Shown here in pieces: positions 55,465 through 64,000 of a stretch of DNA of 64,000 bases (positions within the stretch are counted from its first letter, which is position 1; the number at the start of each line of letters is the position of its first letter). The DNA lies in assembly GCF_056712565.1 (NCBI RefSeq), contig NZ_CM160072.1; one strand, given 5' to 3'. Below the pieces are notes generated by a model. It was given only the letters and a program-made list of their open reading frames with translations, was not told the origin of the DNA and did not search any database. Made by a program: the position numbers and the translations under genes.

Positions 55465-56625
55465 ATGACATCGGAAAACCCGTTACTGGCGCTGCGAGAG
55501 AAAATCAGCGCGCTGGATGAAAAATTATTAGCATTACTGGCAGAGCGACGCGAACTGGCCGTCGAGGTGGGAAAAGCCAAACTGCTCTCGCATCGCCCGG
55601 TACGTGATATTGATCGTGAACGCGATTTGCTGGAAAGATTAATTACGCTCGGTAAAGCGCACCATCTGGACGCCCATTACATTACTCGCCTGTTCCAGCT
55701 CATCATTGAAGATTCCGTATTAACTCAGCAGGCTTTGCTCCAGCAACATCTCAATAAAATTAATCCGCACTCAGCACGCATCGCTTTTCTCGGCCCCAAA
55801 GGTTCTTATTCCCATCTTGCGGCGCGCCAGTATGCTGCCCGTCACTTTGAGCAATTCATTGAAAGTGGCTGCGCCAAATTTGCCGATATTTTTAATCAGG
55901 TGGAAACCGGCCAGGCCGACTATGCCGTCGTACCGATTGAAAATACCAGCTCCGGTGCCATAAACGACGTTTACGATCTGCTGCAACATACCAGTTTGTC
56001 GATTGTTGGCGAGATGACGTTAACTATCGATCATTGTTTGTTGGTCTCCGGCACTACTGATTTATCCGCCATCAATACGGTCTACAGCCATCCGCAGCCA
56101 TTCCAGCAATGCAGCAAATTCCTTAATCGTTATCCGCACTGGAAGATTGAATATACCGAAAGTACGTCTGCGGCAATGGAAAAGGTTGCACAGGCAAAAT
56201 CACCGCATGTTGCTGCGTTGGGAAGCGAAGCTGGCGGCACTTTGTACGGTTTGCAGGTACTGGAGCGTATTGAAGCGAATCAGCGACAAAACTTCACCCG
56301 ATTTGTGGTGTTGGCACGTAAAGCCATTAACGTTTCTGACCAGGTTCCGGCGAAAACGACGTTGTTAATGGCGACCGGACAACAAGCTGGTGCACTGGTT
56401 GAAGCGTTGCTGGTACTGCGCAATCACAGTCTGATTATGACCCGTCTGGAATCACGTCCGATTCACGGTAATCCGTGGGAAGAGATGTTTTATCTGGATA
56501 TTCAGGCCAATCTTGAATCAGCGGAAATGCAAAAAGCATTGAAAGAGTTAGGGGAAATCACCCGTTCGATGAAGGTATTGGGCTGTTACCCAAGTGAGAA
56601 CGTAGTGCCTGTTGATCCAACCTGA
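55465..56625 (+). CDS. pheA: Chorismate mutase / prephenate dehydratase
   Basis: 386 aa. Confidence 0.95.
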
Positions 56626-56667: not shown

Positions 56668-57789
56668 TTACTGGCGATTGTCATTCGCCTGACGCAATAA
56701 CACGCGGCTTTCACTCTGAAAACGCTGTGCGTAATCGCCGAACCAGTGCTCCACCTTGCGGAAACTGTCAATAAACGCCTGCTTATCGCCCTGCTCCAGC
56801 AGCTCAATCGCCTCGCCGAAACGCTTATAGTAACGTTTGATTAACGCCAGATTACGCTCTGACGACATAATAATGTCGGCATAAAGCTGCGGATCCTGAG
56901 CAAACAGTCGCCCGACCATCGCCAGCTCAAGGCGGTAAATCGGCGAAGAGAGCGCCAGTAGTTGCTCAAGCTGAACATTTTCTTCTGCCAGGTGCAGCCC
57001 ATAAGCAAAAGTAGCAAAGTGGCGCAGAGCCTGAATAAACGCCATATTCTGATCGTGCTCGACAGCGCTAATACGATGCAACCGAGCGCCCCAGACCTGA
57101 ATTTGCTCCAGAAACCATTGGTATGCTTCCGGCTTACGTCCATCACACCAGACCACAACTTGCTTTGCCAGGCTACCGCTGTCCGGGCCGAACATCGGGT
57201 GTAACCCCAGCACCGGGCCATCGTGCGCCGCCAGCATGGCCTGTAATGGTCCATTTTTCACCGATGCCAGATCAACCAGAATACAATCTTTCGGTAAAGG
57301 CGGTAATTTGCCGATAACTTGCTCAGTAACGTGGATGGGCACACTAACAATCACCATTCCGGCATCGGAAACAATATCAGCCGCTCGATCCCAGTCATGT
57401 TGCTCCAGAATCCGCACCTGATAACCCGAGAGTGTCAGCATCTTCTCGAACAGACGTCCCATCTGACCGCCACCACCGACGATAACCACCGGGCGCAGTG
57501 ACGGACAAAGCGTTTTAAATCCTTTGTCGTTTTCACTGGAGTAAGATTCACGCATCACCCGACGCAAAACATCCTCAATCAGATCTGGCGGTACACCCAG
57601 AGCTTCCGCCTCTGCACGACGCGAGGCCAACATAGATGCCTCGCGCTCCGGAACATAAATAGGCAGTCCAAAGCGGCTTTTCACCTCGCCCACTTCAGCA
57701 ACCAGTTCCAGACGCTTCGCTAATAAATTCAGCAGCGCTTTATCGACTTCATCAATTTGATCGCGTAATGCGGTCAATTCAGCAACCAT
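56668..57789 (-). CDS. tyrA: Chorismate mutase / prephenate dehydrogenase
   Basis: 373 aa. Confidence 0.95.
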
Positions 57790-57799
57790 AATAAACCTC

Positions 57800-58870
57800 T
57801 TAAGCCACGCGAGCCGTCAGCTGCCCGTTCAGATCCTGATGAATTTCACGCAGCAAGGCATCGGTCATTTCCCAGCTAATGCAGGCATCGGTTACGGATA
57901 CACCGTATTTCATTTCACTGCGCGGTTGCTCGGAAGACTGATTGCCCTCGTGGATATTACTTTCGATCATCAGACCAATAATTGAGCGATTGCCATCTTT
58001 GATTTGAGCAACCACGGATTCTGCCACCGCAGGCTGACGGCGATAATCTTTATTGGAATTACCGTGGCTGCAATCTACCATCAGAGACGGGCGCAGTCCC
58101 GCCTGTTCCATCTCTTTTTCACATTGCGCAACATCCGCAGGGCTATAGTTTGGCGCTTTACCACCGCGCAGGATCACATGCCCGTCCGGATTCCCCTGAG
58201 TTTGTAGCAACGCAACCTGCCCTGCCTGGTTAATGCCAACAAAACGGTGCGGCTGGGCGGCGGCACGCATAGCGTTAATTGCCGTTGCCAGACTGCCATC
58301 GGTGCCGTTTTTAAAACCAACCGGCATGGAAAGCCCGGAGGCCATTTCACGGTGAGTTTGCGATTCCGTTGTACGAGCACCAATTGCTGACCAGCTAAAC
58401 AGATCGCCCAGGTATTGCGGGCTATTCGGATCTAACGCTTCCGTCGCCAGTGGCAGTCCCATATTCACCAGCTCAAGCAGCAATTTACGCGCGATCTGCA
58501 GCCCGGCTTCTACATCAAAAGAGCCATCCATATGGGGATCGTTAATTAACCCTTTCCAGCCGACAGTGGTACGGGGTTTTTCAAAATAGACGCGCATTAC
58601 CAGATAGAGGCTATCGCTGACCTCTGCGGCAAGGGCTTTAAATCGACGAGCATATTCCAGAGCAGTTTCCGGATCATGAATGGAACAAGGACCACATACT
58701 ACCAGCAGACGAGGATCGCGCCCGGCGATAATATCTGAAATGGTTTTACGCGAGTCAGCAATCTGGGCTTCTTGTTGCAGGCTTAATGGAAAAGCGGCCT
58801 TCAGTTGTTCCGGAGTCATTAAAACCTGTTCGGCGGTAATATGTACGTTATTCAGCGCGTCTTTCTGCAT
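57800..58870 (-). CDS. aroF: Tyrosine-sensitive DAHP synthase
   Basis: Start at [15 protein letters not shown] (356 aa). Confidence 0.95.
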
Positions 58871-59016
58871 GATGGCGATCCTGTTTATGCTCGTTTGCGA
58901 TAGTTGATCCTCAGCGAGGATGACGTAACGATAACACATAAAGTAAAGTTTTCAATCCATATTTCGTACACATTTCTTTACATAAGCAATTTATTCGCGC
59001 TTTTTCCCCTTATTTC

Positions 59017-59034
59017 TGTATAAATAAATTTACA
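59017..59034. promoter_or_regulatory. TyrR box (TGTAAA-N6-TTTACA-like) in the aroF upstream region
   Basis: tgtataaataaatttaca; a second, weaker box lies near 58955-58975. Confidence 0.5.
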
Positions 59035-59079
59035 CCAGCTTTAAAAACAATCCGCTATGCTTTGAAAAAGGAGAAAGAA

Positions 59080-59445
59080 ATGATGAAAAAATTTATCGCC
59101 CCCTTGTTGGCTTTACTGGTTAGCGGATGTCAGATTGATCCTTATACTCACGCGCCAACCTTGACCAGCACCGACTGGTATGATGTTGGTATGGAAGATG
59201 CGATATCGGGCAGCGCCATTAAAGATGACGATGCATTTAGCGATTCACAGGCGGATCGCGGTCTATACCTTAAAGGATATGCCGAAGGGCAAAAGAAAAC
59301 TTGCCAGACCGATTTTACTTATGCCCGGGGACTTTCTGGTAAAAGCTTTCCTGCCAGCTGCAATAATGTTGAAAATGCCAGCCAACTGCATGAAGTATGG
59401 CGAAAAGGGGCTGATGAAAATGCCAGCACAATACGATTAAATTAA
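59080..59445 (+). CDS. yfiL: Lipoprotein YfiL
   Basis: Start at MMKKFIAPLLALLVSGCQ with lipobox (121 aa). Confidence 0.8.
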   Translation: MMKKFIAPLLALLVSGCQIDPYTHAPTLTSTDWYDVGMEDAISGSAIKDDDAFSDSQADRGLYLKGYAEGQKKTCQTDFTYARGLSGKSFPASCNNVENASQLHEVWRKGADENASTIRLN

Positions 59446-61998: not shown

Positions 61999-63048
61999 TT
62001 ATGCAACCTCTGCCGCCATATTGTCGCCAACATACAGCGATAACGGATTAAGGGTTACAGCTTGTTCAAGGTGGTCAGGAGCAAAGTGTGCATACTTCAT
62101 TGTTTCTCGAATATTGGCATGCCCGAGAATTTTCTGCAGTACCAGTATATTCCCGCCGTTCATCATAAAATGCGCACCAAAAGTATGACGCAAAACGTGC
62201 GTCTTCTGCCCTTCCGTCAATTCAATATTCGTTAGTTTGAGCATCTTCTTAAACTCCTGATAGCAGGGTTTAAACATTCTGCCTTGACGTACGGACAACT
62301 CGTCGTACAGCCATTTAGGAATAGGAACTGTGCGATTCTTCTTACCTTTGGTTTTGGTGAACGTCAGTTTATATGGAGAAAGTTGAGGGCGGGTCAATCT
62401 CTCCGCTTCCCCCCATCGAGCGCCGGTTGCAAGGCACACCTTAACAATCATGGTGAGGTCTTCTTTGCCGTATTGCTCGCAGGCTCGAAACAGCTCCGGG
62501 AGCTGAGACAAAGTTAGCCAGGACATTTCTTTCTCAGCCTCTTTGAATACTCGGATCCCATCAAGTGGATTGGGTAGGCTCCACTCCCCTAACCGGCGGA
62601 GCTCATTAAACACTGCTTCTAGGTATTGTTGTTCGCGATTGACGGTTATAGGTTTGGCGATCCATTTCGAGGGGTCTTTATGATAACCGTTGTCTATTTC
62701 ACCACGTAATCGACGGTCACGATAATGAGCCCAGTCTTTCGCGGTAAGGCGAGATGCAATCGGGTCACCAAGCCCATTACATACGATTTGAAGCTTTGCT
62801 AACCTCGACTTACTGGCGACTAACGCTTGACCGTGCAAATTGTGCCAAAGCTGAATAATCTCGCTTAAGCGTCGGCGGTCTTCTTTCTTGCCAAGCCACG
62901 GCTTATCTTCACTCTCGCTTTTGGTAAATGCTTCGAATGCCTCGGCCTCACCTTTGGTATTGAATTGCCGACGTATACGCCGCCCTTCTCGACCATTTGG
63001 ATAGAGCTCGCATAACCATTTGCCATTTTTTTGCTTACTTACAGTCAT
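61999..63048 (-). CDS. int: Tyrosine integrase, phage 186/P2 type
   Basis: 349 aa; MTVSKQKNGKWLCELYPNGREGRRIRRQF…, …CLATGARWGEAERL…, …HVLRHTFGAHFMMNGGNILVLQKILGH…YAHFAP… closely parallels 186/P2 Int as recalled. Confidence 0.85.
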   Translation of the reverse strand: MTVSKQKNGKWLCELYPNGREGRRIRRQFNTKGEAEAFEAFTKSESEDKPWLGKKEDRRRLSEIIQLWHNLHGQALVASKSRLAKLQIVCNGLGDPIASRLTAKDWAHYRDRRLRGEIDNGYHKDPSKWIAKPITVNREQQYLEAVFNELRRLGEWSLPNPLDGIRVFKEAEKEMSWLTLSQLPELFRACEQYGKEDLTMIVKVCLATGARWGEAERLTRPQLSPYKLTFTKTKGKKNRTVPIPKWLYDELSVRQGRMFKPCYQEFKKMLKLTNIELTEGQKTHVLRHTFGAHFMMNGGNILVLQKILGHANIRETMKYAHFAPDHLEQAVTLNPLSLYVGDNMAAEVA

Positions 63049-63070
63049 AATGTCACCGAGGCAACTCTAA

Positions 63071-63409
63071 TTATTCGCAAAGTGCTGTTGCGGCATCCAT
63101 TACAGGATCCAAAGGAATTTTTACACCTGCATACTCTGGACTGTCTTTCCAAACAGCATCAATATTGCTCCCCTCAAGCTTTCCAGACTTTACTCCATCA
63201 ATAGCAAAACCATTTAATGGGTATCGGTCATCAGTTGCTTTGTCGTATACAAAGGCATACTTACCGTTAACGCAAGACACCGTAGCTTTTTCAAAAGTTA
63301 ACGGCCAATCCTCACCAAACTTAGCGCCATCTAAATCCTGTGTTTTTTCAGCGGCTAAGGAGCCAAAAGAAAAGGTAAGAAGCATAGCTAAAAAGAGTTT
63401 ACGTTTCAT
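63071..63409 (-). CDS. Small exported protein of unknown function (prophage cargo between int and repressor)
   Basis: Start taken at MKRKLFLAMLLTFSFGSLAA (signal peptide, no lipobox); mature ~90 aa with two Cys; sits in the int-cI lysogenic transcription unit. Start codon is inferred; the track ORF extends further upstream. Confidence 0.55.
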   Translation of the reverse strand: MKRKLFLAMLLTFSFGSLAAEKTQDLDGAKFGEDWPLTFEKATVSCVNGKYAFVYDKATDDRYPLNGFAIDGVKSGKLEGSNIDAVWKDSPEYAGVKIPLDPVMDAATALCE

Positions 63410-63417
63410 AATTTCCC

Positions 63418-63984
63418 TTATACGTGTTTTTCCAATGTGAAAACTACAACCCCGGCAGGCGTAATGTCGGTAATGTTGCATTCAAACTCAGCAGACTTAT
63501 TTGACAACCTGACTTTTCCACCAGGTAAACGAATTACATCAAAAACATCAAGAGCGCCGTCGATATCAATTAACCAGCGACCATTACTTATATTCGAAGC
63601 AGAACAGTCGACAAGCCAAGAGGCAGCTACACCGTCAACAAAAATCAATTCCCCTGAGTTAGAAGGAATCATTGAGGGGTCAGGATGCCACGTTCCTGCA
63701 TCCTTAAGCTCACCAGATTCAAGACGAGATTTTTTAATAGAAAAACCAGATGTGACATCTTCCCTGTTAGCTCGCATTTGCCCCTTGCCTGTTGCTAACC
63801 ATTCCAGTGACGTATCGGTATCAAGAGCGCATGTAACAACAACATCACCAGGGAAAAAATCTCGCCTTACCCATGTGCTAATTGTGCCAGAGGAAATGCC
63901 GAGCAAATCACCGAGCTCCTTTTGCATGGTAAAGCCATACGCATCAAGAATCCTACGCAAAACGGTTTTACCACCATTCGTCAT
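63418..63984 (-). CDS. Phage CI-type repressor (N-terminal HTH, C-terminal oligomerisation domain), 186 CI-like
   Basis: 188 aa; N-terminus LRRILDAYGFTMQKELGDLLGISSGTISTWV is an HTH; size and position match 186 cI. Confidence 0.7.
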   Translation of the reverse strand: MTNGGKTVLRRILDAYGFTMQKELGDLLGISSGTISTWVRRDFFPGDVVVTCALDTDTSLEWLATGKGQMRANREDVTSGFSIKKSRLESGELKDAGTWHPDPSMIPSNSGELIFVDGVAASWLVDCSASNISNGRWLIDIDGALDVFDVIRLPGGKVRLSNKSAEFECNITDITPAGVVVFTLEKHV

Positions 63985-64000
63985 AATCTCGTCATAAAGC

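What the first reader, a model, noticed from the sequence alone, without database searches (positions are those of the whole stretch)
58871..59061. TyrR boxes in the aroF–yfiL divergent intergenic region
tgtataaataaatttaca (59017–59034) fits TGTAAA-N6-TTTACA, and a weaker box lies near 58955–58975. This is consistent with TyrR repression of the aroF-tyrA operon.
Basis: partly seen in the sequence, partly recalled or inferred. Interest (0 to 1): 0.15.

Follow-up and report, generated by a model that had tools for sequence, protein, structure and literature searches.

The report
TyrR operator of the aroF promoter

Summary
The window is E. coli. The 601 bases around the finding are 100% identical to strain ATCC 11775 and 96% identical to K-12. 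The 209-bp gap at 58871-59079 lies between aroF (minus strand, ATG at 58870) and yfiL (plus strand, ATG at 59080).

The box at 59017-59034 is real and matches the TyrR consensus at 11 of 12 positions. The "weaker box near 58955-58975" is not a box: no 18-mer inside that range scores above 5/12. That range straddles two real boxes, 58965-58982 (10/12) and 58942-58959 (8/12). The second of these covers the predicted -35 hexamer. All three keep the G-N14-C pair.

The two strong boxes are the only such sites in the 64 kb. Shuffles of the spacer give two or more with P = 5e-5. In 70 aroF loci from gammaproteobacteria, strong boxes are 55-fold denser upstream of aroF than elsewhere in the loci. In Enterobacteriaceae the box arms are conserved while their spacers and flanks drift. 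The distance between the two strong boxes takes values of 51-53, 61-62 or 107-108 bp, roughly whole helical turns.

Best reading: tyrosine and ATP turn TyrR into a hexamer that fills all three boxes and blocks RNA polymerase. This is already known, and I score its interest low.

The parts
59017..59034 (-). Upstream strong TyrR box ('box 3' in the K-12 naming as I recall it). Reads TGTAAATTTATTTATACA on the aroF strand. It scores 11/12 with G-N14-C, and its centre is about 156 bp upstream of the aroF ATG.
   Evidence: K-12 has TGTAAATTTATCTATACA at the same place; the single difference is in N6. A >=9/12 box sits at -151 to -166 from the ATG in 18 Enterobacterales loci (16 Enterobacteriaceae and two Rosenbergiella), including genera with no yfiL neighbour.
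58965..58982 (-). Promoter-proximal strong TyrR box ('box 1'). Reads TGTAAAGAAATGTGTACG on the aroF strand. It scores 10/12 with G-N14-C, and its centre is about 104 bp upstream of the ATG and 52 bp from the upstream box.
   Evidence: K-12 has TGTAAATAAAAATGTACG; all three differences lie in N6 and the arms are identical. The box is conserved at about -100 to -106 (-113 in Escherichia sp. ESNIH1) across Enterobacteriaceae.
58942..58959 (-). Weak TyrR box ('box 2'). Reads TGGATTGAAAACTTTACT on the aroF strand. It scores 8/12 with G-N14-C, lies 5 bp from box 1 (centres 23 bp apart), and covers the predicted -35 hexamer.
   Evidence: It is identical in K-12 and in all 10 E. coli alleles compared. 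TGGATTGAAAnCTTTAC is nearly invariant in Enterobacteriaceae, with mean column conservation 0.95.
58950..58955 (-). Predicted aroF promoter -35 hexamer TTGAAA, inside the weak box.
   Evidence: Consensus scan: 9 of 12 matches, 16-nt spacer, TG before the -10. It is a prediction only; the start site was not mapped here.
58928..58933 (-). Predicted aroF promoter -10 hexamer TATCGT, preceded by TG (extended -10). The implied transcription start is near 58921.
   Evidence: Invariant within E. coli; mean conservation 0.82 in Enterobacteriaceae.
57800..58870 (-). aroF coding sequence (Tyr-sensitive DAHP synthase), the first gene of the regulated operon.
56668..57789 (-). tyrA coding sequence (chorismate mutase/prephenate dehydrogenase), the second gene of the operon.
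59080..59445 (+). yfiL (DUF2799 lipoprotein), the divergent neighbour. It is not shown to be part of the TyrR circuit.
   Evidence: The upstream box is kept at the same distance from aroF in genera without yfiL.

Best explanation
The spacer holds the tripartite TyrR operator of the aroF-tyrA promoter. TyrR dimers occupy the two strong boxes (58965-58982 and 59017-59034), which lie 52 bp apart on roughly the same face of the helix. When tyrosine and ATP are bound, TyrR self-associates into a hexamer. The hexamer bridges the two strong boxes and also fills the adjacent weak box (58942-58959). That box covers the -35 hexamer, so RNA polymerase is kept off the promoter and synthesis of AroF and TyrA falls when tyrosine is plentiful.

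Shown here: the three boxes, their statistical excess, their overlap with a consensus promoter, their collinearity with K-12, and their conservation and phased spacing across genera.

Inferred from published work on K-12, not tested here: TyrR binding itself, hexamer formation, and promoter occlusion.
For: - Two sites with >=10/12 and G-N14-C are the only ones in 64 kb, and both lie in this 209-bp spacer. Local shuffles give P(>=2) = 5e-5.
- The weak box sits 5 bp from a strong box and covers the predicted -35 TTGAAA.
- Against K-12, the arms of all three boxes are identical and all four in-box differences lie in N6.
- Among 10 diverse E. coli alleles, 3 of 36 arm columns vary against 20 of 52 N6 and inter-box columns (Fisher p = 0.0014).
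- In 70 gammaproteobacterial aroF loci, 54 have at least one strong box within 250 bp upstream. Density is 5.03 per kb upstream against 0.091 per kb in the rest of the loci.
- In an 18-sequence Enterobacteriaceae alignment, mean column conservation is 0.87-0.95 for arms, 0.74 for N6 and 0.62 for the rest of the spacer.
- The spacing between the strong boxes is 51-53 bp (15 loci, two of them Rosenbergiella), 61-62 bp (3 loci) or 107-108 bp (3 loci). That is about 5, 6 and 10 turns, as expected if one protein complex contacts both.
- tyrR is present in 5415 of 5426 complete E. coli genomes.
- Literature: the box definition and G-N14-C (PMC4374768); dimers bind strong boxes and the Tyr/ATP hexamer binds strong plus weak boxes (PMC6524683); the hexamer blocks RNA polymerase at aroF-tyrA (PMC10170061); the aroF promoter is regulated by TyrR with Tyr as corepressor (PMC11878033); aroF-tyrA is one of the most conserved TyrR regulon members (PMC5343134); a Y. 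pestis tyrR deletion raises aroF 39.5-fold (PMC4325908).
Against: - No binding or expression experiment exists for this particular allele. Its box 1 spacer (GAAATG) differs from K-12 (TAAAAA) at 3 of 6 positions.
- The promoter is a consensus match only. The region yielded 1 promoter-like site against 1.3 expected in shuffles, so the -35 overlap rests on prediction plus my recollection of the K-12 mapping.
- The primary papers that footprinted or mutated the K-12 boxes (Cobbett 1988; Andrews et al. 1991; Pittard and Davidson 1991; Pittard et al. 2005) were not held in the library. The box numbering and the K-12 box sequences are therefore from memory, checked only against the K-12 DNA.
- The weak box is also the -35 region, so its conservation cannot be credited to TyrR alone.
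- The 10 E. coli alleles were chosen for diversity and are related to one another, so the Fisher test is only indicative.
Confidence: 0.93

Rival explanations
1. The upstream box (59017-59034) also, or instead, serves the divergent gene. TyrR bound there would repress or activate yfiL, and possibly yfiR-dgcN-yfiB downstream.
For: The box centre is only about 54 bp upstream of the yfiL ATG. The yfiL-proximal part of the spacer, including a TATGCT that could be a -10, is invariant in E. coli and partly kept in genera that have yfiL. TyrR is known to control divergent promoters from shared boxes elsewhere, as at akr-ipdC in Enterobacter (PMC4374768).
Against: The box keeps its distance from aroF (-151 to -166) in ten Enterobacteriaceae loci that have no yfiL within the 1.5 kb upstream, so it travels with aroF. 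No sigma-70-like promoter was found on the plus strand. No held paper links yfiL to TyrR.
Confidence: 0.05
2. The matches are chance A+T-rich near-palindromes in an A+T-rich spacer and bind no regulator.
For: The spacer is 35% G+C. A whole-window search allowing 2 mismatches finds 3 hits against 2.15 expected. Weak 8/12 sites are common, with 85 in the window.
Against: Two strong sites in 209 bp have P = 5e-5 under local shuffles. The arms are conserved while N6 and the flanks drift, both within E. coli and across genera. Strong boxes are enriched 55-fold upstream of aroF orthologues.
Confidence: 0.01
3. The sites belong to another regulator of aromatic amino acid genes, such as TrpR, which is predicted to control aroF-tyrA in Shewanellaceae.
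For: PMC5343134 predicts TrpR control of aroF-tyrA in Shewanellaceae. The Shewanella aroF loci here have no TyrR-like box.
Against: The spacer contains no CTAG, the core of the TrpR operator half-site as I recall it (read directly). The boxes fit the TyrR consensus, including G-N14-C. One paper states that aroF expression in E. coli is controlled only by TyrR (PMC6143558).
Confidence: 0.01

Closest known systems
E. coli K-12 aroF-tyrA operator (TyrR boxes 1, 2 and 3)
   Same: Same locus, same gene order and same three boxes at the same alignment columns. The box arms, the weak box, the -35/-10 and the whole 5' leader are identical.
   Different: This is an allelic variant. Box 1 N6 is GAAATG instead of TAAAAA, and box 3 N6 ends in T instead of C. 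The 34-bp stretch between boxes 3 and 1 and the bases just upstream of box 3 also differ. Over the 106-bp operator the two alleles are only 88% identical, against 96% for the surrounding 601 bp.
Other TyrR-repressed promoters with a strong box next to a weak box over the promoter (tyrP, aroL; from Pittard et al. 2005 as summarised in PMC4374768 and PMC6524683)
   Same: A strong box nucleates TyrR. A weak box is filled only by the Tyr/ATP hexamer and overlaps core promoter elements.
   Different: aroF adds a second strong box about five helical turns upstream. This was not compared base by base here.
TyrR-controlled divergent akr-ipdC spacer of Enterobacter cloacae UW5 (PMC4374768)
   Same: TyrR boxes lie in a spacer between divergent genes, with one strong and one weak site.
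   Different: There both genes are shown to respond to TyrR, and the weak box has atypical arm spacing. Here all three boxes have canonical spacing, and only aroF has evidence for control.

Membership tests
TyrR box (TyrR binding site) | 18-bp dyad TGTAAA-N6-TTTACA; >=10 of 12 matches counts as strong, fewer as weak (definition quoted in PMC4374768) | tested here: met
   59017-59034 scores 11/12, 58965-58982 scores 10/12 and 58942-58959 scores 8/12.
TyrR box (TyrR binding site) | Invariant G and C spaced 14 bp apart (G-N14-C) | tested here: met
   All three boxes have G at position 2 and C at position 17. This is kept in every E. coli allele examined except SCU-152, where a 4-bp A-run insertion makes it G-N18-C in box 1.
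TyrR box (TyrR binding site) | A weak box lies next to a strong box, which is needed for cooperative filling | tested here: met
   The gap between 58959 and 58965 is 5 bp and the centres are 23 bp apart. The same 22-23 bp spacing is seen in Superficieibacter, Klebsiella, Yersinia and Serratia loci.
TyrR box (TyrR binding site) | Physical binding by TyrR (footprint, EMSA, ChIP) | not testable with these tools
The primary K-12 footprint and mutant papers were not held.
aroF-tyrA TyrR operator (K-12 type) | Located upstream of an aroF-tyrA operon, with a box over the promoter -35 | tested here: met
   aroF and tyrA are identified by annotation of identical records. The consensus -35 TTGAAA at 58955..58950 lies inside the weak box. 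The promoter is predicted, not mapped.
aroF-tyrA TyrR operator (K-12 type) | Positional correspondence with the K-12 boxes | tested here: met
   The pairwise alignment has no gap within the spacer, and the K-12 18-mers TGTAAATTTATCTATACA, TGTAAATAAAAATGTACG and TGGATTGAAAACTTTACT fall in the same columns. That these K-12 18-mers are the published boxes is from my memory of Pittard and Davidson 1991 and Pittard et al. 2005.
aroF-tyrA TyrR operator (K-12 type) | The cognate regulator gene tyrR is present in the genome | tested here: inconclusive
   tyrR is outside the window. It is present in 5415 of 5426 complete E. coli genomes, so presence is very likely, but it was not checked for the source strain.
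aroF-tyrA TyrR operator (K-12 type) | Conservation of the boxes upstream of orthologous aroF genes | tested here: met
   54 of 70 loci have a strong box within 250 bp, a 55-fold enrichment. Arms are more conserved than N6 and the flanks.

The most novel reading that the evidence does not exclude
The upstream strong box, about 54 bp from the yfiL start codon, could do double duty. It could let TyrR modulate yfiL and the downstream yfiR-dgcN-yfiB genes, tying tyrosine supply to c-di-GMP signalling. Nothing seen here requires this, and the box follows aroF in genera that lack yfiL.
Probability: 0.04. Interest if true: 0.4.

Novelty: already known. Interest (0 to 1): 0.07.

Why it matters
It matters little for discovery. 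The aroF-tyrA operator is one of the classic TyrR targets, and the mechanism has been in reviews for decades.

Two modest points have practical value. First, the exact coordinates of the three boxes and the predicted promoter in this non-K-12 allele are useful for annotation and for strain engineering of aromatic amino acid pathways. Second, the comparative data give an independent, purely computational confirmation of the operator architecture. The arms are conserved, the N6 spacers and the inter-box DNA drift at near-neutral rates, and the inter-box distance changes roughly in whole helical turns.

Tried and rejected
- **Primary K-12 papers.** I tried to read the mapping papers and reviews (PMC208198, PMC1952039, PMC212103, PubMed 15612913 and 26443741). 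None is held.
- **Full-text search for the K-12 18-mers.** It found only an unrelated yeast paper.
- **Supplement of PMC5343134.** It lists regulon members but no site sequences.
- **Metabolic engineering papers.** They mention TyrR boxes but give no aroF coordinates.
- **MG1655 RefSeq record.** It annotates no binding sites in the spacer.
- **A possible fourth box at 58882-58899.** It scores 8/12 with G-N14-C and lies in the 5' leader. I rejected it because only its promoter-proximal half (CGCAAACGAG) is conserved and the other arm shifts register in other genera.
- **An RNA element in the leader.** The fold is no better than shuffles (z = 0.0). Rfam gives only a sub-threshold chance hit, freshwater-2, at 21.5 bits against a gathering score of 49.9 and E = 0.82.
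- **The 9/12 18-mer at 58937-58954.** It lacks G-N14-C, so I did not count it.
- **A link between yfiL and TyrR.** None was found in the library.

Full report
**What is in the sequence**

The window around the finding is E. coli. Bases 58700-59300 are 100% identical to E. coli ATCC 11775, 96% identical to K-12 derivatives, and present once in 5425 of 5426 complete genomes. RefSeq annotation of those records, together with the ORF list, gives this gene map:

| Gene | Strand | Coordinates |
|---|---|---|
| pheA | + | 55465-56625 |
| tyrA | - | 56668-57789 |
| aroF | - | 57800-58870 |
| yfiL | + | 59080-59445 |
| yfiR, dgcN, yfiB | + | further downstream |

The divergent spacer is therefore 58871-59079, 209 bp at 35% G+C. 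The finding's end at 59061 follows a TTG ORF start, not the annotated ATG.

**Checking the observation**

The string tgtataaataaatttaca is at 59017-59034, as stated, and matches TGTAAA-N6-TTTACA at 11 of 12 positions.

The second claim, a weaker box near 58955-58975, does not hold as located. The 18-mers that fit in that range score 2-5 of 12 and lack the G-N14-C pair. The range straddles the 5-bp gap between two real boxes:
- 58965-58982 reads TGTAAAGAAATGTGTACG on the aroF strand and scores 10/12. That is a strong box by the >=10/12 rule quoted in PMC4374768.
- 58942-58959 reads TGGATTGAAAACTTTACT on the aroF strand and scores 8/12, a weak box.

All three boxes have G-N14-C.

**Is it more than chance?**

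A plain search allowing two mismatches gives 3 hits in the window against 2.15 expected, which is unimpressive on its own. But two of those three hits lie within 70 bp of each other in this spacer. With G-N14-C required, they are the only sites at >=10/12 in 64 kb. Dinucleotide-preserving shuffles of the spacer itself give a mean of 0.012 such sites and P(>=2) = 5e-5.

The weak box cannot be told from background by score, since 85 sites in the window reach >=8/12. It is supported by its position and its conservation.

**Anatomy relative to the promoter**

The only sigma-70-like match in 58700-59250 is on the aroF strand: -35 TTGAAA (58955..58950), a 16-nt spacer, and TG followed by -10 TATCGT (58933..58928). 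This is a consensus match, not a mapped promoter. It agrees with my recollection of the K-12 aroF promoter.

If transcription starts near 58921, the boxes span these positions:

| Box | Span relative to the predicted start | Note |
|---|---|---|
| Weak box (box 2) | about -38 to -21 | covers the whole -35 hexamer |
| Proximal strong box (box 1) | about -61 to -44 | |
| Distal strong box (box 3) | about -113 to -96 | |

The centres are 23 bp apart (weak to proximal strong) and 52 bp apart (proximal to distal strong).

**Comparison with K-12 and other E. coli**

The spacer aligns with K-12 with no gap inside it. K-12 carries TGTAAATTTATCTATACA, TGTAAATAAAAATGTACG and TGGATTGAAAACTTTACT in the same columns. 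From memory these are the published boxes 3, 1 and 2; I could not open the primary papers.

All four in-box differences between the window and K-12 lie in the N6 spacers, and the arms are identical.

The 106-bp operator segment is unusually polymorphic in the species. Only 261 genomes are >=99% identical to the window allele, and 3475 fall in the 80-90% band; K-12 is at 88%.

Among ten alleles taken across that range, variable columns concentrate in three places: between the two strong boxes (16 of 34 columns), just upstream of the distal box, and in the N6 of box 1. Only 3 of 36 arm columns vary, and nothing varies from the box 1/box 2 gap down to the end of the aligned segment, 5 nt before the aroF ATG. 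The contrast of arms against N6 plus inter-box gives Fisher p = 0.0014. This is only indicative, because the alleles were picked for diversity and are related.

**Comparison across genera**

A scan of one genome per species returned 80 aroF loci. In the 70 loci with a complete 5' end:
- 54 have at least one strong box within 250 bp upstream of aroF.
- Density is 5.03 per kb upstream against 0.091 per kb in the rest of the loci, a 55-fold difference.

In Enterobacteriaceae there are two boxes of >=9/12, at about -155 and -104 from the ATG, and a nearly invariant TGGATTGAAAnCTTTAC. Mean column conservation in the 18-sequence alignment is 0.87-0.95 for the arms, 0.74 for N6 and 0.62 for the rest of the spacer.

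The distance between the strong boxes falls into three classes:

| Spacing (bp) | Loci | Approximate helical turns |
|---|---|---|
| 51-53 | 15 (13 Enterobacteriaceae, 2 Rosenbergiella) | 5 |
| 61-62 | 3 | 6 |
| 107-108 | 3 (Erwinia/Pantoea) | 10 |

This is the pattern expected if one protein complex contacts both boxes from one face of the DNA.

Yersinia, Serratia and their relatives keep a strong-plus-weak pair at -112/-90. Vibrionaceae have boxes near -128 and -21. Shewanella and Halomonadaceae loci have none, in line with the regulon reconstruction in PMC5343134.

**Mechanism**

Established knowledge, cited from papers I could read:
- Unliganded TyrR dimers bind strong boxes only, and the hexamer formed with tyrosine and ATP binds strong and weak boxes together (PMC6524683).
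- At aroF-tyrA the hexamer blocks access of RNA polymerase (PMC10170061).
- The aroF promoter is regulated by TyrR with tyrosine as corepressor (PMC11878033).
- In Y. pestis, deleting tyrR raises aroF 39.5-fold and tyrA 19.4-fold (PMC4325908).
- tyrR is in 5415 of 5426 E. coli genomes.

The anatomy found here fits that model point for point: two nucleating strong boxes in helical phase and a weak box over the -35. The binding, the hexamer bridge and the occlusion are inferred for this allele, not shown.

**The yfiL side**

The distal box is about 54 bp from the yfiL ATG, so a second role cannot be excluded. Three results argue against it:
- The box sits at the same distance from aroF in ten Enterobacteriaceae loci that lack a yfiL neighbour.
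- No plus-strand promoter match was found.
- No held paper connects yfiL with TyrR.

**Other rivals**

Chance is excluded. A TrpR site is unlikely because the spacer contains no CTAG and the boxes fit TyrR.

**Verdict**

The feature is the already known TyrR operator of aroF-tyrA in a non-K-12 allele, and its interest is low.

Noticed in passing
window 61999-64000: An integrase ORF (minus strand, 61999-63048), a CI-type repressor and a DUF2511 gene directly follow yfiB. The 2.3-kb stretch is found in full in only 65 of 5425 E. coli genomes (for example SF-468 and APEC E18055). ATCC 11775 has rplS at this place. This is probably a prophage or island inserted between yfiB and rplS.
   Followed up: partly
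window 58889-58903 (minus strand: CTATCGCAAACGAGC): This 15-nt element in the aroF 5' leader is invariant in the E. coli alleles and nearly invariant across Enterobacteriaceae, and it is more conserved than the -10 hexamer. It overlaps an 8/12 TyrR-like 18-mer (58882-58899) whose other arm is not kept in register elsewhere, so it is probably not a TyrR box. Its function is unexplained. PMC11878033 lists a strong predicted GcvB-aroF pairing (-28.3 kcal/mol) but found no regulation.
   Followed up: partly
window 58906-58922: An inverted repeat (CATCCTCGCTGAGGATC on the aroF strand) lies at the predicted 5' end of the aroF mRNA, and the CCTC...GAGG arms recur in other genera. The whole leader folds no better than shuffles (z = 0.0).
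   Followed up: partly
window 58935-59040 versus E. coli genomes: The operator segment is far more polymorphic within E. coli (88% identity between the window and K-12 alleles) than the surrounding 601 bp (96%). The changes are concentrated between the two strong boxes.
   Followed up: yes
L089 (E. coli SCU-152), aligned to window 58965-58982: Four extra A bases inside the N6 of box 1 would change G-N14-C to G-N18-C. The same record has three extra T bases in a T-run near yfiL. This is either a natural operator-spacing variant or a homopolymer assembly error.
   Followed up: no
L018, L019, L060 (Erwinia/Pantoea); L015-L017: The distance between the two strong boxes changes in steps close to whole helical turns between genera: 51-53, 61-62 and 107-108 bp.
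   Followed up: yes
L038, L039, L042, L044, L051, L052, L055 (Vibrionaceae): A different arrangement appears upstream of aroF. There is a strong box near -128 (often with a weaker one about 20 bp downstream) and another strong box about 20 bp before the start codon.
   Followed up: no
H3, NZ_CM138820.1 (E. coli GIMC1409): An IS1 transposase interrupts yfiL next to the aroF spacer in this strain.
   Followed up: no
aroF/yfiL spacer, K-12 coordinate 2739338 in PMC5493296: A genomic SELEX peak for a minor sigma factor (in the section on heat-shock sigma promoters) is listed in the aroF<>yfiL spacer.
   Followed up: no
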